Of a stretch of 64,000 nt of DNA, positions 43,896 through 53,470 are shown one piece after another. Every line of letters starts with the position of its first letter. Position 1 is the first letter of the stretch. Position numbers and translations under genes: made by a program. The notes beneath the pieces were generated by a model. It had not been told where the DNA came from, made no database searches, and saw only the letters and a program-made list of their open reading frames with translations. Source of the stretch: Oscillospiraceae bacterium (lineage in GTDB: Bacteria > Bacillota > Clostridia > Oscillospirales > Oscillospiraceae); the NCBI GenBank assembly GCA_009780435.1, contig WRAB01000002.1:62420-126419 (forward strand). Direction: 5' to 3'.

Positions 43896-46838
43896 ATGAG
43901 CATACGAATCGGAATTGACATAGGCAGTACCACGGTCAAAGTGGTGCTGTTGGACGAGCAGAATCAACTGCTCTATCACTCTTATGAGCGCCACTACTCC
44001 AAGGTGCGCGAAAAAGCGGCGGAGCAATTGCGCCAAGTGGCAGATCGTTTGGCGGGCCGAGAAGTCCACGCAGTGATCACCGGATCGGCGGGCCTGGGCG
44101 TCTCTAAGGCGTCTGATATCCCCTTCGTCCAGGAGGTCTACGCCACCGCTGCCGTAGTCCAGGCATATATTCCCGACGCCGACGCCGTCATCGAATTGGG
44201 CGGCGAGGATGCGAAGATCATCTTCCTGACCGGCGGCCTGGAAGAGCGGATGAACGGGTCCTGCGCCGGCGGCACCGGCGCATTTATCGACCAGATGGCC
44301 ACCCTGTTGGACGTATCTGTGCCGGAACTGGACGCCCTCTGCTTGCAACATGAAAAAATCTACCCCATCGCCTCCCGTTGTGGCGTTTTTGCCAAGAGCG
44401 ATATCCAGCCCATCTTGAATCAGGGGGGGCGTCGAGCGGATATCGCCGCGTCCATTTTCCAGGCCGTGGTGGATCAGACCGTTGGGGGCCTGACCCAGGG
44501 CCGGGAGCTGACGGGGAAAATCGTCTTCCTCGGCGGCCCATTGACCTTCCTCACAGGCTTGCGCCAGCGATTCGTAGAGACATTGGAACTGGACGCCCAC
44601 CACGCAATTTTCCCGGAACACGCCGAGTGCTATGCCGCCATCGGTGCGGCCCTCTGTGCCGGAGATAAAGCGCCCGTCCTGTTTGAGGACATGTTGCGGC
44701 GATTAGAGGAATCCGTGGAAGATGTGGGCCCCACCGATATCATGGAACCCCTCTTTGCCTCTGCTGATGAATACGAGGCATTTAAACGCCGCCACGGGGC
44801 CGCCGCACCGGAACCTGTAGACGCGGAAAACTATCACGGCGCGGCGTATCTCGGCATCGACGCCGGGAGCACCACTACGAAACTGGTGCTCATCACCCCG
44901 GACGGGGGGATTTTATACAGTTATTACGGCTCCAACAAAGGCAGCCCTGTGACCATTGTCTTGGAGGAGCTCAAAAAGCTCCGCACATTCTGCGGAGACC
45001 GGATCGCAATCGCCGCAAGCGCCGTCACGGGCTACGGCGAAGACCTCATGCGGCACGCCTTTTCCATCGACGCGGGGCTGGTGGAGACCGTGGCCCACTA
45101 CCGGGCGGCCCGGCATTTTAATCCCCGGGTGGATTTTATTATCGACATCGGCGGCCAGGATATGAAGTGCTTCAAAATCCGCGGCGGGGCCGTGGACAGC
45201 ATCCTGCTCAACGAGGCCTGTTCCTCCGGATGCGGTAGCTTTATTGAGACATTCGCCAAGGCGTTGGATTACGACATCGCCGACTTCGCCACCCTGGGCA
45301 TCTTGGATCAGACTCCGACAAACTTGGGCAGCCGCTGTACCGTATTTATGAACTCTAGTGTCAAGCAGGCCCAGAAAGAGGGGGCCGGCGTGGAGTCCAT
45401 CTCCGCCGGACTATCCCTGTCCATTGTGAAAAATGCCATCTACAAGGTGGTTCGGGCGGCCAGCGCCGACGATCTGGGGCGGCATATTGTCGTCCAGGGG
45501 GGGACGTTCCTCAATGACGCCGTCCTCCGGGGCTTTGAGCAGGAAATCGGCAGAGAGGTGACCCGGCCCACCATCGCAGGGCTCATGGGGGCCTACGGAG
45601 CGGCTCTGGCGGCCAAAGATTTGGATCCCGGTATCAGCGGCAATCTACTGGACCTCTCCGCGCTAGAGGCCTTTACCCACACGGCGAACCCCAGCGCCTG
45701 TAAGGCGTGTACCAATCGGTGCAGTCTCACAGTCAACACCTTTGACGGCGGGCGGCGGTTCCTCTCCGGCAACCGGTGCTCCGTCCCCTTGGGGGGCGAA
45801 AAGGGCGGGGAGCCGAATCTCATGGCGTATAAATACCAGTCCCTCCGGGCCATGACGGGCAGAGGCGACGGCACCGGGATGCGGGGGACAATCGGAATTC
45901 CTTTTGGGCTGAATATGTATGAGAATCTGCCCTTCTGGTATGCATTTTTTACGAAGCTGAACTTTGAGATCGTCCTGTCCCCCGAATCCAGTAGAGACCT
46001 GTACGTGAAAGGCCAGCGGACCATCCCCTCGGACACGGTCTGCTACCCGGCGAAACTCCTCCACGGCCATGTGGAACACTTAATCGACATGGGGGTGGAC
46101 GCTATCTTCTATCCCTGTATGTCTTACAACTTTGACGAGGGCAAGGGGGACAACCATTTCAACTGTCCCGTGGTGGCCTATTATCCGGAATTGTTGCGGG
46201 CCAACATCGCCAGGCTGGACGGGGTCAAATACATAGATACATATTTTGGTCTCCACAGGCCCAAGGGCTTGGAGAAGGTGGCATCGGCGTATTTTTTATC
46301 CGAGTTTAATATCCCCAAAAAAGAGACCGCCTCTGCCATCCGTGCGGCGTATCAGGCCTATGAGCAGTACCGCCAAGATATCCGTGCCGAGGGGGCAAAG
46401 GCCATCCGATACGCACGGGAGCACGGCAAGCGGATTCTCGTCGTGGCGGGGCGGCCCTATCACATCGACCCGGAGATCAACCACGGCCTGGATGAGATGA
46501 TTACTTCCTTCGGCCTGGTCTTGATCACCGAAGACGCCATCGACCACTTGGTCGGCCCGGAGAAGCGCCGGGTACTCAACCAGTGGACGTATCACGCCCG
46601 CATCTACGACGCGGCCCGGTATGTCTGCACCCAGCCGGACATGCAGTTACTCCAACTGGTCAGCTTCGGCTGCGGATTAGATGCCATCTGTACCGACGAG
46701 GTGCGGGATATTTTAGAGCGATCTGGCAAACTCTACACCCAGATCAAAATTGATGATATCTCCAACCTGGGTACGGCACGGATTCGCATCCGCAGTCTGA
46801 TCGCCGCAGCGGAATATTTAGACGGGGGGGCGTTGTAA
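43896..46838 (+). CDS. BadF/BadG/BcrA/BcrD (HgdC-type) double ATPase fused to a DUF2229-like domain ('CoA-substrate-specific enzyme activase' family)
   Basis: There are two actin-fold ATPase modules (IGIDIGSTTVK and LGIDAGSTTTK), a Cys cluster CKACTNRC, and a long C-terminal domain. Confidence 0.8.
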   Translation: MSIRIGIDIGSTTVKVVLLDEQNQLLYHSYERHYSKVREKAAEQLRQVADRLAGREVHAVITGSAGLGVSKASDIPFVQEVYATAAVVQAYIPDADAVIELGGEDAKIIFLTGGLEERMNGSCAGGTGAFIDQMATLLDVSVPELDALCLQHEKIYPIASRCGVFAKSDIQPILNQGGRRADIAASIFQAVVDQTVGGLTQGRELTGKIVFLGGPLTFLTGLRQRFVETLELDAHHAIFPEHAECYAAIGAALCAGDKAPVLFEDMLRRLEESVEDVGPTDIMEPLFASADEYEAFKRRHGAAAPEPVDAENYHGAAYLGIDAGSTTTKLVLITPDGGILYSYYGSNKGSPVTIVLEELKKLRTFCGDRIAIAASAVTGYGEDLMRHAFSIDAGLVETVAHYRAARHFNPRVDFIIDIGGQDMKCFKIRGGAVDSILLNEACSSGCGSFIETFAKALDYDIADFATLGILDQTPTNLGSRCTVFMNSSVKQAQKEGAGVESISAGLSLSIVKNAIYKVVRAASADDLGRHIVVQGGTFLNDAVLRGFEQEIGREVTRPTIAGLMGAYGAALAAKDLDPGISGNLLDLSALEAFTHTANPSACKACTNRCSLTVNTFDGGRRFLSGNRCSVPLGGEKGGEPNLMAYKYQSLRAMTGRGDGTGMRGTIGIPFGLNMYENLPFWYAFFTKLNFEIVLSPESSRDLYVKGQRTIPSDTVCYPAKLLHGHVEHLIDMGVDAIFYPCMSYNFDEGKGDNHFNCPVVAYYPELLRANIARLDGVKYIDTYFGLHRPKGLEKVASAYFLSEFNIPKKETASAIRAAYQAYEQYRQDIRAEGAKAIRYAREHGKRILVVAGRPYHIDPEINHGLDEMITSFGLVLITEDAIDHLVGPEKRRVLNQWTYHARIYDAARYVCTQPDMQLLQLVSFGCGLDAICTDEVRDILERSGKLYTQIKIDDISNLGTARIRIRSLIAAAEYLDGGAL

Positions 46839-46839
46839 T

Positions 46840-48105
46840 ATGGCCGAACTCATCTACGACAAAGACGGTAGACTCCTCTTCACCAAGGAAATGAAACGGG
46901 AGTATACCCTCCTCATGCCCACCATGCTCCCGGTGACCTTTACCTTGATGAAAAAACTCCTGGAGTTGGACGGCTACAAGATCGATCTGCTGGAGACCAC
47001 GCACCGGGGCATTGTGGACACGGGGTTAAAATACGTCCACAACGACACTTGCTATCCGGCCCTGCTGGTCATCGGCCAATTGATGGAAGCCATCAACAGC
47101 GGCCAGTATGACAAGCGCAAAATCGCCCTTATGATCTCTCAGACTGGTGGCGGGTGCCGGGCGTCCAACTATATCCATCTGCTCCGAAAGGCTCTGGAGA
47201 AGGCGGGACTAGACTATGTCCCTGTGGTCTCTATCAATATGTCGGGGCTGGAGAAAAACCCCGGATTTTCTTTTAATGTGCGCACCGTGCGCCGCCTGGT
47301 GCCGGCTATGATCTACGGGGATATCCTTGTCCATCTGGCCAATCAGTGCCGTCCCTATGAGAAAACCCTCGGCGAGACTGACAAGCAAATTGACCGCTGG
47401 ACAAACCATCTGGTCGATCTCTTTTCTAAGGGCCGGGGTCTGCGGAAGAAGGAGATGCAAACGGTGATGACTGCCATCGCCGCCGGGTTTGCGGAGATTC
47501 CCCTGGAACAAATAGACCGGCCTCTGGTGGGTGTGGTGGGCGAGATTTACGTGAAATTCGCGCCCTTGGGCAACAATAATTTGGAGGATTTCCTCTTGTC
47601 CGAGGGCTGTGAAACCATTGTGCCGGGCCTGACGGACTTTCTGCTGTTCAAAATCGACAACCGGATCGAGGATGTGGATCTCTACGGAGGGCGATATCTG
47701 AAAAAGAAACTGGCACAGTTTCTCAAAAGTTACATCGAGAGCCTCCAACAGTGTATGATCAACGCCGTCAAAACCCAGCCGAACTTCCGAGTCATGGAAC
47801 CCTTCTCCGCCCTAAAGTCCGGCGTCGCCGGATACCTGGGCTACGGCAACAAGATGGGCGAGGGCTGGCTTCTCACCGCCGAGATGATTGAGCTAATCCA
47901 CGCCGGGATCACCAATATTGTCTGCACCCAGCCCTTTGGCTGTCTGCCCAATCATATTGTGGGCAAGGGCATGATCCGCAAGCTCAAAGACGACTTCCCG
48001 GACTCCAACATCGTGGCCATCGACTACGATCCCGGTGCGACAAAGATAAACCAGGAGAACCGGATTAAACTCATGTTGTCCAATGCAGGACGCAGGGCCG
48101 TGTAG
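46840..48105 (+). CDS. 2-hydroxyacyl-CoA dehydratase-related protein (partner of the activase-like gene)
   Basis: 421 aa. It is translationally coupled, starting 2 nt after the upstream stop. Conserved Cys residues are present (NDTCYP, GGGCRASN). Confidence 0.7.
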   Translation: MAELIYDKDGRLLFTKEMKREYTLLMPTMLPVTFTLMKKLLELDGYKIDLLETTHRGIVDTGLKYVHNDTCYPALLVIGQLMEAINSGQYDKRKIALMISQTGGGCRASNYIHLLRKALEKAGLDYVPVVSINMSGLEKNPGFSFNVRTVRRLVPAMIYGDILVHLANQCRPYEKTLGETDKQIDRWTNHLVDLFSKGRGLRKKEMQTVMTAIAAGFAEIPLEQIDRPLVGVVGEIYVKFAPLGNNNLEDFLLSEGCETIVPGLTDFLLFKIDNRIEDVDLYGGRYLKKKLAQFLKSYIESLQQCMINAVKTQPNFRVMEPFSALKSGVAGYLGYGNKMGEGWLLTAEMIELIHAGITNIVCTQPFGCLPNHIVGKGMIRKLKDDFPDSNIVAIDYDPGATKINQENRIKLMLSNAGRRAV

Positions 48106-48156
48106 GGCTTATAGACAGAGAGTGTAAATGTGCATGTGGAAGGATGGTGACTTATC

Positions 48157-50616
48157 GTGACAACAGATGCGTTCAGAGACGAAGTGAAAAGGCGAATAAA
48201 AGATTTTTCTTATGAGGAAACTATTTATTTCGCATGGCTTTGCGCTGTACGGGTACTACCTTTTTTGAGTGCGGAAAGGAAATTCAAATATTGGGAAGAA
48301 CAGGATAGGCAAAAACATCTGTTTTCAATATTTCGAGCGATTGATACCGCCGCCATCGCCGACGACGCCGACGTTGCCGCCATCGCCGACGTTGCCGCCG
48401 ACGCCGCCATCGCCTCCGCCTCCGCCATCGCCTCCGCCGCCGACGTTGCCGACGCCGCCTTCTTTGCCGCCACCGTCGCCGCCGACGTTGCCGCCACCGC
48501 CGACGATGCCGCCATCGCCGCCACCACCGCCTTCTTTGCCACCACCGTCGCCGCCGCTGACGACGTTGCCGCTACCGTCGCCAATAACCAAAAAGAATTT
48601 TCCGTTGTAATACTTTCTGATATAGATGCCATTACGGCAAAGGCCCGAAAAACATATCATAATGATGTAAGTATATATGGCGAGATATGGCATCACTTTT
48701 TAGCTGACCTGCGAGGAATCGGCTGTGGATATTGGGCAAATCTATATGAAGAGTTATTTAGAAATGGCTTTGTTGTAGATGAAGAAGAACTGGAACGCCG
48801 CCTCAATGTGCCAGACGAAATAAAAGCACAGGGTGCAGCGGCTGTTGGGCAATATTTGGAACGTCTGGGGGACGACACAGAGCGGCTGAATGAGGCCCGT
48901 ATCATTATCCTGGGCGAAAAAGGCGCTGGCAAGACGAGTATTGCACGTAAGCTGATCGACATAGACGCAGATTTGCCGCAGGAGCATGAGAGCACACCGG
49001 GGGTCTCCGTTTTGGGCTGGCGATTAGAAGATAACCAGGGCGGGGACGCCATGAACGTCCACATATGGGACTTTGCCGGTCACGCCATTACCCATGCCGC
49101 ACACCGCTGTTTCATGTCTTCACGGTGTCTGTATATTTATGTCTATGATGGGCGAGGCGAACACGCCAACCGGCCCGACTATTGGCTGGAACAAATTAGA
49201 GTCTACGGGGGACAGTCCCCTGTTCTCTTCCTGATTAACGAAAAAGACGACCACAGGCCAAATGTTGAGCGTAAGACACTACAAAATCGTTACCCGTCTA
49301 TTCAGGACTATTACAGTTTTGACATATGGAGCGAGGATCAGGAAAAACTGAAATCCTTCCGTGGAGCCGTGGCAGACCTGCTCCGCAACAATCCGGCTTG
49401 GAACCGGCAGGAAATATCCGCCGATGCATACCGAATTAAGGAGGAGCTACGCACTCATTTTGAGAACAACAGGGCGGATTCTATCACCCGAGAACAGTTT
49501 GACGAAATTGCGGAAAAAACCGATGCGTCACCTGAAATGCACGGGAAAATATTAGAAGATTTACATACCCTGGGCATTTGTCTCTGGTATAACACAGAAG
49601 ACATGCGAGATTTCAACCAGTTGGTATTGAATCCTGACTGGATTTCCAATGGTATCTATAAGATAATTAATTGGGGGGACAAAAAAGAAAAACATATCAT
49701 GTCAGTTGATGATGTGACAGAGATTTTCACCGGAGAGGATAAGCCCCGTTATCCAAGAGATAAAATCCGGTTTCTATTTAAACTGATGAACGTGTACGAA
49801 TTGGCATTTTTCAAAGATAGTCAAATTTTTGTTCCGATTCTGCTGCCCGCTGACCGTCCCGACACTTTTCCGGATTTTCCGGATGATGAACGCTTGACTA
49901 TGTGCTTTCATGTAGAAAAAGCCTTGCCGCCAAACGTTGTTTCACGGTTAATTGTGCGCCACAACGAAGAACTTGGTGACGAAAACGAGGTCTGGCGCAA
50001 AGGTGCGGTGCTGCGCTATTGTAGCGGAGATGCCATTGCACTGGCAATAGAAGATGAGCGGAGCATTCATGTGCGGGTCAAGGGAGCGGACAAAACACAA
50101 TACATTTCGCACTTGCGTGATACTTTGAAAGCTATTTTTGAAAGCTACAAAGAGATGCACCCCGACGTGCTCTATGAGGTTCTGGTTCCGGAAGAGATAA
50201 ATGTACCCATTCCTGTGCGTAGAGAACCACTTCTGCTAAAAGGGGAGACTATTCTCGCACATTTACGTGCGGGGCGTCCATACCTTGACGAGTTTAGCGG
50301 CAAAGACATTACATTGGTAGCGATAGGGGACTATTATGATTTGAGAACTATAACCAATGGATTTACAGGCTCCGAACTTTTAGGGTTAATTGCCGAAATT
50401 CGGAATCACGCCTGGGAATCCCCTGATGAGTTCAAAACAATAGCTGAAAGCCTCAAAACAATAGAAAATGAGTTGACGCAACAAAATGAAAAAAGCCCTG
50501 GCCTTTTGAAAAAAACCCTTTCGGGGCTACGGGCAGTGAATGATACAAAAAAATTTGGCACTACGGTTCATTCTTTAGCTCAATCTCTCCAAACATTTTT
50601 GGAGACATGCTCTTAA
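48157..50616 (+). CDS. Roc-COR (ROCO-type) GTPase with an N-terminal helical segment and an Ala/Asp-rich hexad-repeat tract
   Basis: 819 aa with a GTG start. The P-loop is ILGEKGAGKTS, the switch II motif is WDFAGH, and the G4-like motif is LINEKDD. COR-like stretches are LEDLHTLGICLWY, LVLNPDWISNGIYKIIN, VYELAFF...FVPILLP and VWRKGAVLRY. GC is lower than in the flanking genes. Confidence 0.8.
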   Translation: MTTDAFRDEVKRRIKDFSYEETIYFAWLCAVRVLPFLSAERKFKYWEEQDRQKHLFSIFRAIDTAAIADDADVAAIADVAADAAIASASAIASAADVADAAFFAATVAADVAATADDAAIAATTAFFATTVAAADDVAATVANNQKEFSVVILSDIDAITAKARKTYHNDVSIYGEIWHHFLADLRGIGCGYWANLYEELFRNGFVVDEEELERRLNVPDEIKAQGAAAVGQYLERLGDDTERLNEARIIILGEKGAGKTSIARKLIDIDADLPQEHESTPGVSVLGWRLEDNQGGDAMNVHIWDFAGHAITHAAHRCFMSSRCLYIYVYDGRGEHANRPDYWLEQIRVYGGQSPVLFLINEKDDHRPNVERKTLQNRYPSIQDYYSFDIWSEDQEKLKSFRGAVADLLRNNPAWNRQEISADAYRIKEELRTHFENNRADSITREQFDEIAEKTDASPEMHGKILEDLHTLGICLWYNTEDMRDFNQLVLNPDWISNGIYKIINWGDKKEKHIMSVDDVTEIFTGEDKPRYPRDKIRFLFKLMNVYELAFFKDSQIFVPILLPADRPDTFPDFPDDERLTMCFHVEKALPPNVVSRLIVRHNEELGDENEVWRKGAVLRYCSGDAIALAIEDERSIHVRVKGADKTQYISHLRDTLKAIFESYKEMHPDVLYEVLVPEEINVPIPVRREPLLLKGETILAHLRAGRPYLDEFSGKDITLVAIGDYYDLRTITNGFTGSELLGLIAEIRNHAWESPDEFKTIAESLKTIENELTQQNEKSPGLLKKTLSGLRAVNDTKKFGTTVHSLAQSLQTFLETCS
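48346..48582 (+). repeat. Internally repetitive, very GC-rich coding tract (Ala/Asp/Val/Ile/Thr/Phe only)
   Basis: GCCGCCATCGCCGAC occurs twice and GACGTTGCCGCC several times. Two units of about 40 nt carry GCCTTCTTTGCC(G/A)CCACCGTCGCCGCCG. All six reading frames stay open across the tract. Confidence 0.85.
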
Positions 50617-50641
50617 TTAACAAAATCCCCAAGGAGACACT

Positions 50642-53470
50642 ATGCAAAACAGCATCTACATCAAAGGCGCCAGAGAGAACAATCTGCGAAATGTTGACAT
50701 CCGAATCCCCAGAGATCAACTGGTGGTATTTACGGGGATTTCCGGGAGCGGGAAGAGTTCTCTGGCTTTCGATACAATCTATGCAGAGGGGCAGAGACGG
50801 TATGTGGAGTCTCTGTCCGCCTACGCACGGCAATTTTTGGGCCAGATGGAGAAGCCCGACGTGGACTACATCGAGGGCCTCTCTCCCGCCATCTCCATTG
50901 ACCAGAAGACCACCAGCAAAAACCCCCGCTCCACCGTGGGGACGGTGACGGAGATATACGACTATCTGCGTCTGCTCTGGGCCAGAGTGGGGTCGCCCCA
51001 TTGTCCCGATTGCGGCAAGGAGATTCAACAACAGACCATCGACCAGATCATCGACCAGGTGCTGGCCCTGCCCGCAGAGACGCGGATTCAGGTGCTGGCC
51101 CCCGTGGTCAGGGCCAGAAAGGGCGAACACGTCAAAGTCTTTGAAGACGCCCGGAAAAGTGGGTACGTCCGTGTCCGTGTAGACGGGCATATCTATGATC
51201 TGACGGAAGAGATCAAACTGGAAAAAAACAAAAAACACAGTATCGAGGTAGTCGTCGATCGGTTGGTCATCCGGGAGGACGTGGCCAAGCGGTTGGCGGA
51301 TTCCGTGGAGACCGCCTCCGGTCTCTCCGGCGGGCTGGTGATTATCGACATAACGGAGACGGGCCAGGAACTGCTCTTCTCCCAGAATTACGCCTGTGAG
51401 GACTGCGGCATCTCCATCGAGGAACTGACGCCCCGGATGTTCTCGTTTAACAACCCCTACGGGGCCTGCGCCGCCTGTACAGGCCTGGGCCACATTATGC
51501 GGGTGGATCCGGATATTATCATCCCCAACCAAGCGTTGAGCATCGAGGAGGGGGCCGTATCCGCCTCCGGCTGGGGGAATGTCCGGGGGGACTCCATCTC
51601 CCGGATGTATTTTGACGCCTTGGCCAAGAAATACAAGTTCAAACTCTCAACCCCCGTCCGGAACCTGCCGCCTGAGGTGTTGGATATTATCCTCTACGGC
51701 ACCAAAGGAGAAAAACTCTCCCTCAACTACGACAGAGAGCGGGGCGTAGGCACATTGAGCCAGCCCTTTGAGGGGATCGTGAATAACCTGGAACGTCGCT
51801 ACCACGAGACCCAGAGCCCATCTATGCGGTGGGAGATCGAACAATATATGTCCCGCTATCTCTGCCCCGACTGCGACGGCCGCCGCTTGAAAAAAGAGGC
51901 CCTGGCCGTCACTGTGGGGGAGATCAACATCGCCGACATGACGGAAAAAAGCGTCACCCAGGCGTTGGAGTTCGTGGAACAGTTGCGCTTGGACGAGACC
52001 AAAATGCTGATTGCCGAGCGGATTCTCAAAGAGATTCGGGAGCGGTTGGGTTTTCTCGTCAGCGTGGGGCTTACTTATCTGACCCTGGCCCGTCAGTCTG
52101 GCAGTTTGTCCGGTGGGGAGAGTCAGCGGATTCGTCTGGCCACCCAGATTGGATCGAGCCTTATGGGTGTGTTATACATCTTAGATGAACCCAGTATAGG
52201 GCTCCATCAGCGGGATAATGAGAAGCTTTTAGCCACCCTCTTTCGCCTTCGTGACCTGGGTAATACCTTAGTTGTCGTGGAGCACGACGAGGACACCATG
52301 CGGGCGGCAGATCACATTGTCGATGTAGGCCCCGGCGCCGGTGTCCACGGCGGAGAGATTATCTTTTCCGGGACCCCGGCGGAGATTTTACAATGTGAGG
52401 ATTCCATCACGGGTCAGTATTTATCGGGAAAGAAAATGATCCCCGTACCGAAGACCCGGCGGGTACTGGACGGTCCGCGGTTGGAGATTCTAGGGGCCGC
52501 GGAGAACAATCTCCAAGACATCGACGTGGCCTTTCCCCTGGGGGTTATGACCTGCGTCACCGGGGTTTCCGGCAGCGGAAAGAGCTCTCTGGTCAACGAG
52601 ATACTATACAAGGGGTTGGCGGCGGAGCTGAACCGGGTGAAAGTCAAGCCGGGCAAACACCGGGTCATCCGGGGCATGGAGTTTTTGGACAAGATCATCA
52701 ACATCGACCAGAGTCCCATCGGCAGGACACCCCGCTCCAACCCGGCCACCTATACCAGCCTGTTCAACGACGTGCGGGATCTATTCGCCTCTACCCAGGA
52801 GGCAAAAGCCCGTGGCTACGGGCCGGGCCGGTTCTCTTTCAACGTCAAGGGTGGGCGTTGCGAGGCCTGCTCCGGGGACGGACTATTGAAGATCGAAATG
52901 CACTTTTTGCCCGATATCTACGTCCCCTGTGAGGTCTGTAAGGGCAAGCGGTACAACCGGGAGACCCTGGAGGTGCGCTATAAGGGCAAAAATATCAGCG
53001 AAGTGCTGGATATGACCGCCGCAGAGGGCCTGGGCTTTTTTGAGAATCTGCCCAAGTTGAAAAATAAGCTGCAGACCCTGTGTGACGTGGGGCTGGGATA
53101 TATCCGGCTGGGACAGCCCTCCACCACCCTGTCCGGCGGAGAGGCCCAGCGGGTCAAATTGGCCACAGAGCTCACCAAGCGGGCCACGGGCCGCACCATT
53201 TACGTACTGGATGAGCCCACGACGGGCCTCCACGTAGACGACGTGGCAAAACTCCTAGACGTTCTGGCCCGACTGGTGGATGCGGGCAACACGGTGGTGG
53301 TCATTGAGCACAACCTGGACGTAATCAAGACGGCGGATTATATACTAGACCTGGGCCCCGAGGGGGGCGACGGCGGCGGACAACTCCTCTGCCAGGGTAC
53401 GCCGGAGGAGATCATCCAATGCCCGGAGAGCTATACGGGACAGTTTTTACGTAAAATCTTAGCGCCTTAG
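50642..53470 (+). CDS. uvrA: Excinuclease ABC subunit A
   Basis: 942 aa. [45 protein letters not shown] is followed by two ABC modules and zinc fingers. Confidence 0.97.

What the first reader, a model, noticed from the sequence alone, without database searches (positions are those of the whole stretch)
48157..50616. Single-gene low-GC island encoding a Roc-COR (ROCO) GTPase with no recognisable effector domain: a candidate NTPase-type conflict or defence gene
An 819-aa ORF is wedged between the conserved activase/dehydratase-like pair (52 nt upstream) and uvrA (26 nt downstream). No terminators flank it, and its GC content is clearly lower than that of its neighbours. The central part reads as a Ras-of-complex (Roc) GTPase, with GEKGAGKTS as the P-loop and WDFAGH as switch II. 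The G4 position reads NEKD rather than NKxD. It is followed by sequences typical of COR domains: LHTLGICLWY, LVLNPDWISNGIYKIIN, VYELAFF...FVPILLP and VWRKGAVLRY. In bacteria, Roc-COR modules are usually attached to LRR or other repeats. Comparative-genomic work has proposed them as cores of NTP-dependent conflict systems, but to my knowledge none has been functionally characterised. Here the flanking parts do not resemble any effector or sensor domain I can recognise. Those parts are the first 65 aa (a helical segment), the hexad-repeat tract, aa 150-250, and the last 170 aa (also helical).
Basis: partly seen in the sequence, partly recalled or inferred. Interest (0 to 1): 0.75.

Follow-up and report, generated by a model that had tools for sequence, protein, structure and literature searches.

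The report
Horizontally acquired modular Roc-COR GTPase gene
A gene inserted between two housekeeping genes of a gut Oscillospiraceae bacterium encodes a LRRK2-type GTPase switch with an undescribed helical N-terminal module and a small C-terminal module shared with a candidate anti-phage system, so it looks like a one-protein immune sensor, though nothing about its function has been tested.

Summary
An 819-aa ORF (48157-50616, +) encodes a genuine Roc-COR GTPase. Roc, COR-A and COR-B all pass Pfam cut-offs, and the protein matches MbRoco2 (E 3e-43) and CtRoco (E 1e-36). GC3 is 0.485 against 0.71-0.73 in the neighbours. In the five nearest syntenic relatives uvrA directly follows the dehydratase-like gene, so this is a single-gene insertion.

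The N-terminal 216 aa are not variable. They form one conserved all-alpha module (AF2 pTM 0.83, no PDB or viral fold match) that defines a family of more than 100 metagenomic proteins from scattered bacterial and archaeal phyla. That module contains a hypervariable Ala-rich hexad tract.

The variable slot is the tail after COR-B. Relatives carry TIR, SIR2_2, PNP, TM helices or a second Roc-COR there. The query carries a four-helix module of about 85 aa that is the C-terminal domain of the PADLOC candidate PDC-M14B. No PDC-M14A partner is present.

Between tandem paralogues the Ala tract and the tail diverge fastest.

Best reading: a sensor-switch-output conflict protein, a non-LRR variant of the AP-GTPase/COR systems of Kaur et al. 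2021. The function is inferred. The locus itself is not a defence island.

The parts
48106..48156 (+). Left junction: 51-nt spacer after the DUF2229/dehydratase-like gene. It holds the RBS-like GGAAGGA of the Roc-COR gene.
   Evidence: No terminator-like site. The equivalent empty sites in relatives have a total spacer of only 19-64 nt.
48157..50616 (+). Roc-COR GTPase gene: 819 aa, GTG start, TAA stop.
   Evidence: An identical protein, P0001, is on a 135-kb ENA contig.
48157..48351 (+). N1 (aa 1-65): first conserved helical part of the N-terminal module, with the FAWLCAVRxLPFLS...YW..RQKHL motif.
   Evidence: F25, W27, C29, R32, L34, W46 and L55 are >=90% conserved; P35 and D63 are invariant in at least one of the two alignments. 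The AF2 model has helices here with pLDDT 86-92.
48352..48591 (+). Ala-rich hexad tract (aa 66-145): the hypervariable insert inside the N-terminal module.
   Evidence: TRF periods of 9/18/27 nt. Lag-6 autocorrelation 0.41 and 39 of 49 Ala codons are GCC. Identity to the family is 0.22 with 30% gaps. Identity is 30-47% between tandem paralogues whose cores are 75-100% identical. Modelled as helices at pLDDT 53-72.
48592..48804 (+). N2 (aa 146-216): second conserved helical part of the N-terminal module, with the YGxxWxxF...GCxYWAxLYxxLFxNGF motif.
   Evidence: D155, Y174, W178, F181, L185, C190, Y192, W193, Y197, F201 and F205 are conserved. pLDDT 86-97. No fold match in the PDB or BFVD.
48805..48891 (+). 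Pre-Roc linker helix (aa 217-245), shared with other prokaryotic Roco proteins.
   Evidence: Alignments to 4WNR, 3DPU and 6HLU start at aa 217-219. It has the highest identity to the query of any region in the family, 0.62.
48898..49248 (+). Roc GTPase domain (Pfam envelope aa 248-364). G1 is at 48913-48939, switch II/G3 (DFAGH) at 49066-49083, and G4 (NEKD) at 49237-49248.
   Evidence: Pfam Roc E 4.7e-22. G1 GxxGxGKT is 97-100% conserved, AGH 95-100% and D364 99% in the family.
49432..49845 (+). COR-A domain (aa 426-563).
   Evidence: Pfam PF16095 E 3.9e-19. Aligned to MbRoco2 4WNR through aa 560.
49891..50205 (+). COR-B domain (aa 579-683). This is the dimerisation domain in characterised Roco proteins.
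   Evidence: Pfam PF25497 E 1.6e-11. Aligned to CtRoco 3DPU/6HLU through aa 662.
50206..50340 (+). Post-COR linker (aa 684-728), partly conserved in the family.
   Evidence: BLAST alignments of most homologues end at aa 680-735. Identity 0.27.
50341..50607 (+). C-terminal four-helix tail module (aa 729-817), equal to the C-terminal domain of PADLOC PDC-M14B. It occupies the family's variable output slot.
   Evidence: PADLOC PDLC04451 E 7.4e-9. A local HMM built from 72 carriers scores E 1.3e-21. The exhaustive profile search finds 365 representative clusters. The AF2 model has four helices with mean pLDDT 74.
50617..50641 (+). Right junction: 25-nt spacer holding the uvrA RBS (AAGGAGA).
   Evidence: No terminator-like site.

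Best explanation
The gene encodes a stand-alone, single-polypeptide conflict (probably anti-phage or anti-mobile-element) protein built as sensor, switch and output.

- Sensor (inferred): the N-terminal all-alpha module (aa 1-216) with its fast-evolving Ala-rich helical tract takes the place of the LRR sensor of other prokaryotic Roco proteins. I infer that it is the ligand- or invader-recognition surface.
- Switch: the Roc-COR tandem (aa 217-683) is shown to be homologous to CtRoco, MbRoco2 and LRRK2. Its switch behaviour is inferred from what is known of CtRoco, where guanine-nucleotide state is coupled to a COR-B-mediated change in oligomeric state.
- Output: the tail after COR-B is the output slot. 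In relatives it holds TIR, SIR2 or PNP enzymes, or TM helices. In this protein it holds an ~85-aa four-helix module shared with the PADLOC candidate PDC-M14B. I infer that this module either acts directly (for example on the membrane or by homotypic assembly) or recruits an effector encoded elsewhere.

The gene reached this Oscillospiraceae genome by horizontal transfer into the 19-64-nt gap between the dehydratase-like gene and uvrA. With no terminator in either spacer, it may be co-transcribed with them.
For: Shown:
- Roc, COR-A and COR-B pass the Pfam cut-offs.
- The protein matches 4WNR at E 2.6e-43, 3DPU/6HLU at E 1e-36 and LRRK2 at E 2e-14.
- G1, G3 and G4 residues are 95-100% conserved across the family.
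- The N-terminal module is conserved in the homologues examined and is confidently all-alpha.
- In relatives the slot after COR-B holds TIR_2 (P0042 aa 745-840), SIR2_2 (P0101 aa 830-960), PNP_UDP_1 (P0029, P0034), TM helices or a second Roc-COR.
- The query tail equals the PDC-M14B C-terminal module. An LRR-Roc-COR protein (P0166) and AbiTii-, AbiEi- and PD-(D/E)XK-containing proteins also carry it.
- Canonical PDC-M14 sits next to PDC-S34 in L087.
- In two tandem paralogue pairs the cores are 75-100% identical, the Ala tract 30-47% and the tails 10-40%.
- The gene is absent from all 80 related Oscillospiraceae loci. uvrA abuts the dehydratase-like gene in the five that keep synteny.
- GC3 is 0.485 against 0.71-0.73 in the neighbours.
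- The best non-self homologue is only 58% identical, and homologues come from Bacillota, Bacteroidota, Fibrobacterota, Cloacimonadota, Planctomycetota, Bathyarchaeota and Nitrososphaerota MAGs.

Precedent: Kaur et al. 2021 (PMC8195603) describe LRR + AP-GTPase + COR proteins with at least 24 alternative C-terminal effectors or EADs and with paralogue expansions.
Against: - No experiment exists for any member of this family or for PDC-M14.
- The locus is not a defence island. Every neighbour within +/-10 kb is a housekeeping gene.
- Across the 8 family contexts examined, defence or mobile genes are nearby in only 3. These are L002 (HipA, PDC-S33-like), L093 (recombinases, MTase) and L095 (SIR2_2, transposase).
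- The query itself has no enzymatic effector.
- Its tail has a polar last helix (KD -0.04 against a 1.29 mean in carriers), so a membrane role is weaker here.
- No partner carrying the same module, and no PDC-M14A, is encoded in the 64-kb window or next to homologues.
- The sensor role of the N-terminal module rests only on its position and variability.
- Neither unassigned module has an informative fold match.
Confidence: 0.6

Rival explanations
1. It is the receptor and adaptor half of a split system. The four-helix tail is an effector-associated (EAD-like) homotypic interaction domain that recruits a separately encoded effector carrying the same module, such as one of the small PDC-M14B-like proteins with variable N-termini, located elsewhere in the genome.
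For: The module is always C-terminal and is attached to many different N-terminal domains, including AbiTii, AbiEi and PD-(D/E)XK. It also occurs on another Roco subfamily (P0166). Kaur et al. 2021 list 'different EADs' among the occupants of the C-terminal slot of AP-GTPase proteins. The query's tail is polar rather than membrane-like.
Against: No second copy of the module is found in the 64-kb window or within +/-9 kb of P0105, P0073, P0117 or P0111, whereas EAD partners are typically adjacent. No fold similarity to Death-like domains was found.
Confidence: 0.25
2. It is a cellular signalling or regulatory GTPase, a 'bacterial LRRK2-like' protein with a physiological role such as stress response or cell-envelope regulation, and has nothing to do with defence. 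The variable tails would be alternative regulatory outputs.
For: The locus is housekeeping and the gene may be co-transcribed with uvrA. Several homologues also sit among metabolic genes (L004, L090, L096). No biological role is reported for CtRoco in the papers consulted here.
Against: The gene is absent from all related genomes at this site and has a foreign GC3. The family is spread patchily across bacterial and archaeal phyla. TIR, SIR2 and PNP tails are hallmark abortive-infection effectors. The tail is shared with a defence-candidate family. Tandem paralogues have hypervariable modules.
Confidence: 0.1
3. It is a decaying or non-functional passenger: a recently transferred gene that has lost its original effector and kept only a vestigial tail.
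For: There is no enzymatic effector. The tail is more polar and more divergent than in typical carriers (16-34% identity; polar H4). The gene is solitary with no partner.
Against: The 819-aa ORF is intact and all G motifs and family-invariant residues are preserved. The tail still scores E 1.3e-21 against the module HMM over its full length. Four other family members share this short tail type.
Confidence: 0.05

Closest known systems
Prokaryotic AP-GTPase (Roc)-COR conflict systems of Kaur, Iyer, Burroughs & Aravind 2021 (eLife 10:e70394; LRR + AP-GTPase + COR + variable C-terminal effector or EAD)
   Same: Both have a Roc-COR core. Both have a C-terminal slot filled by interchangeable conflict effectors (TIR and others) or small non-catalytic modules. 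Both have a rapidly evolving repeat region N-terminal to the GTPase. Both form paralogue expansions and have a sporadic distribution.
   Different: The N-terminal LRR is replaced by an all-alpha module with an embedded Ala-rich hexad tract. That module has no Pfam match and no PDB or BFVD fold match. SIR2_2, PNP and the PDC-M14B tail are not among the examples that paper names in its text. The family comes mainly from anaerobic gut-type MAGs, including archaea, rather than from filamentous or multicellular bacteria.
Structurally characterised prokaryotic Roco proteins: Chlorobium tepidum CtRoco (3DPU, 6HLU, 8R4B) and Methanosarcina barkeri MbRoco2 (4WNR)
   Same: Clear sequence homology over pre-Roc linker, Roc, COR-A and COR-B (E 1e-36 to 3e-43, aa 217-662). 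G1, G3 and G4 are conserved.
   Different: There is no LRR. Switch II reads DFAGH rather than DxxGQ (H309 is 95% conserved). The protein has an extra N-terminal alpha module and a C-terminal tail module. No biochemistry is available.
Runella bacterial gasdermin-activating protease (Roc-COR-CHAT; Johnson et al., bioRxiv 10.1101/2021.06.07.447441)
   Same: A bacterial Roc-COR protein that sits upstream of a cell-death effector, showing that Roc-COR modules are used in prokaryotic cell-death and defence pathways.
   Different: The query has no CHAT or caspase-like protease domain, and no gasdermin gene is nearby.
PADLOC candidate system PDC-M14 (M14A double zinc-ribbon protein + M14B)
   Same: The last ~85 aa of the query are homologous to the C-terminal module of PDC-M14B.
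   Different: Only profile positions 178-260 of 261 match. The N-terminal part of M14B is absent, and no M14A is encoded in the window. PDC-M14 is itself only a computational candidate.
STAND-NTPase immune sensors (Avs/NLR-like, bNACHT)
   Same: Same design logic: a variable repeat sensor, an NTPase switch and a swappable effector in one polypeptide.
   Different: A different NTPase superfamily: a Ras-like TRAFAC GTPase with COR rather than a STAND ATPase. Only the P-loop gives a weak nSTAND3 hit (E 0.033).

Membership tests
Roco (Roc-COR) GTPases | Ras-like Roc GTPase domain with G1 (GxxxxGK[ST]), G3 (DxxG) and G4 (N/TxxD) motifs | tested here: met
   Pfam Roc E 4.7e-22, above the gathering score. 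GEKGAGKT, DFAG(H) and NEKD are present. G1, the AGH of G3 and D364 are 95-100% conserved in the family, and the G4 N is >=90% conserved.
Roco (Roc-COR) GTPases | COR-A and COR-B directly C-terminal to Roc | tested here: met
   PF16095 E 3.9e-19 (aa 426-563) and PF25497 E 1.6e-11 (aa 579-683). A contiguous alignment to CtRoco RocCOR 3DPU covers aa 218-662.
Roco (Roc-COR) GTPases | GTP binding and hydrolysis coupled to COR-mediated dimerisation | not testable with these tools
   Needs biochemistry. Only motif conservation is available.
AP-GTPase/COR conflict systems (Kaur et al. 2021) | [quoted passage not shown] | tested here: not met
   No LRR Pfam hit. The N-terminus is an all-alpha module. 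A functionally analogous hypervariable repeat, the Ala tract, is present.
AP-GTPase/COR conflict systems (Kaur et al. 2021) | Variable C-terminal slot holding conflict effectors or EADs | tested here: met
   Family members carry TIR_2, SIR2_2, PNP_UDP_1, TM helices, a second Roc-COR or helical modules after COR-B. The query carries the PDC-M14B module.
AP-GTPase/COR conflict systems (Kaur et al. 2021) | Several paralogues per genome with different effectors | tested here: inconclusive
   Seen for homologues: P0012 and P0020 on one contig. P0013 and P0015 are both reported on an 8,462-nt contig, but this was not confirmed by look-up. Only one copy is present in the 64-kb window, and the whole genome is not available.
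PADLOC PDC-M14 | Full-length M14B protein | tested here: not met
   Only profile positions 178-260 of 261 match aa 732-814.
PADLOC PDC-M14 | Adjacent M14A (double CxxC zinc-ribbon) gene | tested here: not met
   phmmer of an M14A sequence against the six-frame window gives no hit better than E 1.4. The canonical arrangement is seen in L087.
Gasdermin-associated Roc-COR-CHAT proteases | CHAT or caspase-like protease domain and a neighbouring gasdermin gene | tested here: not met
   No such Pfam hit. The neighbours are housekeeping genes.
Defence-island resident gene | Recurrent co-localisation with known defence systems | tested here: inconclusive
   Three of the 8 family contexts examined have defence or mobile neighbours and 5 do not. 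The sample is too small for statistics.

The most novel reading that the evidence does not exclude
The conserved N-terminal all-alpha module with its in-frame, expandable Ala-rich hexad tract is a new class of intracellular pattern-recognition domain. It replaces LRRs in a Roco-type GTPase immune receptor family that moves between bacteria and archaea of anaerobic gut communities. The PDC-M14B-type four-helix tail is a new, portable cell-killing or effector-recruiting output module shared by several otherwise unrelated defence proteins.
Probability: 0.3. Interest if true: 0.8.

Novelty: new variant of a known kind. Interest (0 to 1): 0.55.

Why it matters
Roco GTPases are studied intensively because of LRRK2 and Parkinson's disease, but the papers I could search give no native role for the prokaryotic model proteins.

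This family is compact (~820-900 aa) and lacks LRRs. Some members end in TIR, SIR2 or PNP effectors, which would give an easily read output such as NAD+ depletion or cell death. That output could be used to ask what activates a Roc-COR switch and how nucleotide state is passed through COR to a C-terminal domain.

For prokaryotic immunity the finding adds three things:
- a non-STAND, GTPase-based single-protein receptor family;
- a sensor-like module with no match in the PDB or BFVD;
- a link between that family and the uncharacterised PADLOC candidate PDC-M14 through a shared, portable C-terminal module.

It also shows that such genes can sit silently between core genes such as uvrA, outside defence islands, where guilt-by-association screens will miss them.

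Tried and rejected
1. **Fold searches.** Foldseek of the N-terminal model against the PDB (best E 3.3, TM <=0.25) and BFVD (best E 0.8), and of the tail model against the PDB (best is UPF0147 2QSB, E 1.0, TM 0.53-0.60), gave no informative relatives.
2. **N-terminal module outside Roc-COR proteins.** A spliced N1+N2 query found only 16 candidates and one partial hit. A 24-sequence N-terminal profile was swamped by Ala-rich words and returned 2 truncated family members. Both searches were uninformative, so the question is still open.
3. **EAD-type partner.** HMM scans for a second tail or N-terminal copy in the window and around four homologues were negative.
4. **PDC-M14A in the window.** Negative.
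5. **Homology between the majority 'GLPQVPKPFL' tails and the PDC-M14B-type tail.** hhalign gave probability 44% and E 2.4e-4 over the first two helices only. This is inconclusive.
6. **Mobile-element carriage.**
   - tblastn against PLSDB found only distant LRR-type Roc-COR genes (22-28% identity, core only).
   - There was no hit in phage genomes.
   - There was no confirmed hit in IMG/VR.
7. **Recombinase-driven shufflon in L093.** The inverted arms are only 73-86% identical, so this is not supported as a classical shufflon.
8. **Names for the tail module.** NCBIfam and PHROGs gave none, apart from phrog_16834 (unknown function) for one carrier.
9. **RNA genes.** An Rfam scan of 46500-52000 on both strands found nothing.
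10. **Class III cyclase tails (P0049, P0056).** This annotation comes from JGI only and was not confirmed by Pfam at E <=1e-4.
11. **Insertion scars.** No flanking direct repeats or recombinase genes were seen at the junctions.
12. **Literature.** No paper in the searchable library describes this family or PDC-M14.
Full report
**1. The observation**

The window holds an 819-aa ORF at 48157..50616 on the + strand, with a GTG start and a TAA stop. The GTG is the first in-frame start after a stop and follows a GGAAGGA RBS. It also lines up with the N-termini of homologues.

The ORF lies 51 nt after a DUF2229/dehydratase-like gene and 25 nt before uvrA. No terminator-like site lies in either spacer, and no Rfam family matches on either strand.

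The compositional anomaly is clearest at third codon positions. GC3 is 0.485, against 0.71-0.73 for the four flanking genes. The hexad tract is real, with TRF periods of 9, 18 and 27 nt and a lag-6 residue autocorrelation of 0.41.

**2. Roc-COR identity**

Pfam finds all three domains above the curated cut-offs:
- Roc, aa 248-364, E 4.7e-22
- COR-A, aa 426-563, E 3.9e-19
- COR-B, aa 579-683, E 1.6e-11

phmmer against PDB sequences aligns aa 217-662 to several solved Roco structures:
- MbRoco2 (4WNR), E 2.6e-43
- CtRoco (3DPU, 6HLU, 8R4B), E about 1e-36
- LRRK2, E about 2e-14

G1 (GxxGxGKT), G3 (DFAGH) and the N and D of G4 are at least 90% conserved in the family. NEKD keeps the canonical N(i)/D(i+3) spacing, so it is not a degenerate G4. 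Membership in the Roco family is therefore met at the sequence level.

**3. It is a lineage-specific insertion**

The host is an Oscillospiraceae bacterium. The flanking DUF2229 protein is 73-74% identical to Sporobacter-like genomes.

Of 80 related loci with the activase/DUF2229 pair, none encodes the Roc-COR gene. In the five that keep this synteny (L006, L007, L008, L010, L072), uvrA follows directly. The spacer is 19-64 nt in four of them and about 520 nt in L007.

Together with the GC3 gap, this shows horizontal acquisition of a single gene. The junctions show no repeats or recombinase genes. Everything within +/-10 kb is a housekeeping gene, so the locus is an island of one gene and not a defence island.

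**4. The family and its architecture**

The protein database holds at least 250 homologues. The best non-self hit is only 58% identical. Named sources span Lachnospiraceae, Defluviitaleaceae, Bacteroidales, Fibromonadaceae, Cloacimonetes, Bathyarchaeota and Nitrososphaerota MAGs.

Nearly all the full-length members examined start with the same N-terminal segment (FAWLCAVRALPFLS...YW..RQKHL), followed by an Ala-rich tract, and have the P-loop at about residue 230-300. BLAST and MAFFT show that conservation runs from about aa 5 to about aa 680-735, after which the sequences diverge.

Clustering of the post-COR tails gives several helical tail types. It also gives tails with TM helices, a second Roc-COR, and enzymatic domains. 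Pfam places the enzymatic domains C-terminal to COR-B:
- TIR_2 in P0042 (aa 745-840)
- SIR2_2 in P0101 (aa 830-960)
- PNP_UDP_1 in P0029 and P0034

The N-terminus is the constant, family-defining part, and the extreme C-terminus is the variable output slot.

**5. The N-terminal module**

With a 106-sequence alignment, AlphaFold2 models aa 1-245 as one all-alpha domain (mean pLDDT 81.8, pTM 0.83). The Ala-rich tract forms three helices at lower confidence (pLDDT 53-72). Foldseek finds nothing significant in the PDB (best E 3.3) or in BFVD.

The flanking sub-regions N1 and N2 carry near-invariant aromatic and Cys residues. The tract is the least conserved part of the core, with 0.22 identity and 30% gaps. 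In the query, 39 of its 49 Ala codons are GCC and its GC3 is 0.85, which points to recent in-frame tandem expansion.

Residues 217-245 are the pre-Roc linker shared with other Roco proteins.

**6. The tail**

PADLOC matches aa 732-814 to the C-terminal third of PDC-M14B (E 7.4e-9).

An exhaustive profile search with the five short-type tails finds 365 representative clusters (182 at E <=1e-10). In the 150 best, the match is almost always at the extreme C-terminus, mostly of proteins of 100-500 aa with unrelated N-termini. All 94 carriers that were scanned hit PDC-M14B. Occasional N-termini are AbiTii, AbiEi, PD-(D/E)XK, YjcQ or HEAT. One carrier is an LRR-Roc-COR protein from another Roco subfamily (P0166), and one equals a phage protein family of unknown function.

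In L087, the canonical PDC-M14 is a 162-aa double zinc-ribbon M14A overlapping M14B, with PDC-S34 next door.

AF2 models the query tail as four helices with mean pLDDT 74, and there is no informative fold match. In carriers, H2 is acidic (-5.2), the loop and H3 are basic, and H4 is hydrophobic (KD 1.29). The query's H4 is polar (-0.04).

No M14A, and no second copy of the tail or of the N-terminal module, is found in the window or beside four homologues. The query is therefore not a PDC-M14 system. It borrows only that system's C-terminal module.

**7. Evidence on evolutionary mode**

Two paralogues, P0012 and P0020, lie head-to-head on one contig. P0013 and P0015 are both reported on an 8,462-nt contig, which I treated as a second tandem pair.

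In both pairs the N2-Roc-COR core is 75-100% identical, while the Ala tract drops to 30-47% and the tails to 10-40%. The two modules that diverge fastest are the ones I propose as input and output. This is the pattern expected of an immune-receptor family.

Contexts of the family members examined share no partner gene. L093 has two recombinase genes plus a methyltransferase fragment, L095 has SIR2_2 plus a transposase, and L002 has HipA plus a PDC-S33-like gene. The other five contexts have no defence or mobile genes and are mostly metabolic or housekeeping.

The family is absent from PLSDB (except distant LRR-type Roco genes), from phage genomes and from IMG/VR.

**8. Mechanism**

Shown:
- homology to Roc-COR switches
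- a modular sensor-like, switch and output layout
- an effector-type slot at the C-terminus
- horizontal mobility

Inferred:
- The N-terminal alpha module, through its variable Ala-rich helices, recognises an invader-derived or stress-derived ligand.
- This changes the Roc nucleotide state and COR-B-mediated oligomerisation, as in CtRoco (my own knowledge of the Roco literature, not tested here).
- The change activates the C-terminal module.

For TIR, SIR2 and PNP relatives the outcome would be NAD+ or nucleotide depletion. For this protein, the four-helix tail either acts directly or recruits an effector encoded elsewhere. My evidence does not separate these two options.

**9. Comparison with known systems and novelty**

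The closest description is the LRR + AP-GTPase + COR + variable C-terminus conflict system of Kaur et al. 2021. The present family shares the core, the effector slot and the paralogue expansions. It fails the LRR criterion, because an unrelated alpha module with a new kind of variable tract stands in place of the LRR.

A functional precedent for bacterial Roc-COR in cell-death pathways exists in the Runella Roc-COR-CHAT gasdermin protease.

I found no paper on this family or on PDC-M14 in the searchable library. I therefore rate it a new variant of a known kind.

**10. Verdict**

The finding is real and moderately interesting. A defence or conflict role is the best-supported reading (confidence about 0.6), but it rests entirely on comparative evidence. 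The specific activity of this protein's tail is unknown.

Noticed in passing
L093:6163-15130 (also L094): Two family paralogues (P0020 on the - strand, P0012 on the + strand) lie head-to-head with a tyrosine recombinase gene between their 5' ends. A second recombinase and an N6-methyltransferase fragment lie downstream. The inverted cores are 73-86% identical, while the Ala tracts and tails are unrelated. This is too divergent for a classical shufflon, but recombinational exchange of modules is not excluded.
   Followed up: partly
window 48352-48591: The Ala-rich tract has GC3 of 0.85 and uses GCC for 39 of its 49 Ala codons, inside a gene whose other parts have GC3 of 0.33-0.58. The long ORFs in other frames and on the other strand (48225-48632 -, 48269-48610 +, 48325-48696 -) are by-products of this tract.
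   Followed up: partly
L091:452-1483 and L091:4997-5494: The homologue P0073 is flanked by a 343-aa and a 165-aa protein. They share a two-TM segment followed by a 'KTARQ..IQI.YF..LKQIEI' helix, which might be SLATT-like membrane effectors. Neither has a Pfam or PADLOC hit.
   Followed up: no
L015, L016, L048, L052 (Methanocorpusculum MAGs): The activase/DUF2229 (BcrAD_BadFG + DUF2229) gene pair upstream of the insertion has 63-68% identical counterparts in methanogen MAGs, as close as many Oscillospiraceae. This suggests inter-domain transfer of the pair, or bin contamination.
   Followed up: no
L007:7369-7889: In one relative, the same DUF2229-uvrA gap holds a different ~520-nt insert with coding potential, so this intergenic slot has accepted insertions more than once.
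   Followed up: no
L095:1-6398: The homologue P0072 (on a 3.1-Mb contig) lies downstream of a 1236-aa SIR2_2 protein, a DDE transposase and a pentapeptide-repeat protein, and upstream of a Ser/Thr kinase. This is a variable, defence-like neighbourhood, unlike the query locus.
   Followed up: no
L087:574-1840: The canonical PDC-M14 pair consists of M14A, a 162-aa protein with two CxxC...CxxC zinc-ribbon motifs, overlapping M14B by 14 nt, with PDC-S34 immediately downstream. P0129 (411 aa) appears to be an M14A-M14B fusion.
   Followed up: partly
and record names: Many homologues and the nearest host relatives come from MAGs whose isolate codes (Nm470, Nc350, Po218, Pcl387, Md513) and locus tags look like those of termite-gut projects. 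The family may be enriched in that habitat across bacterial and archaeal phyla. This is a recollection and was not tested.
   Followed up: no
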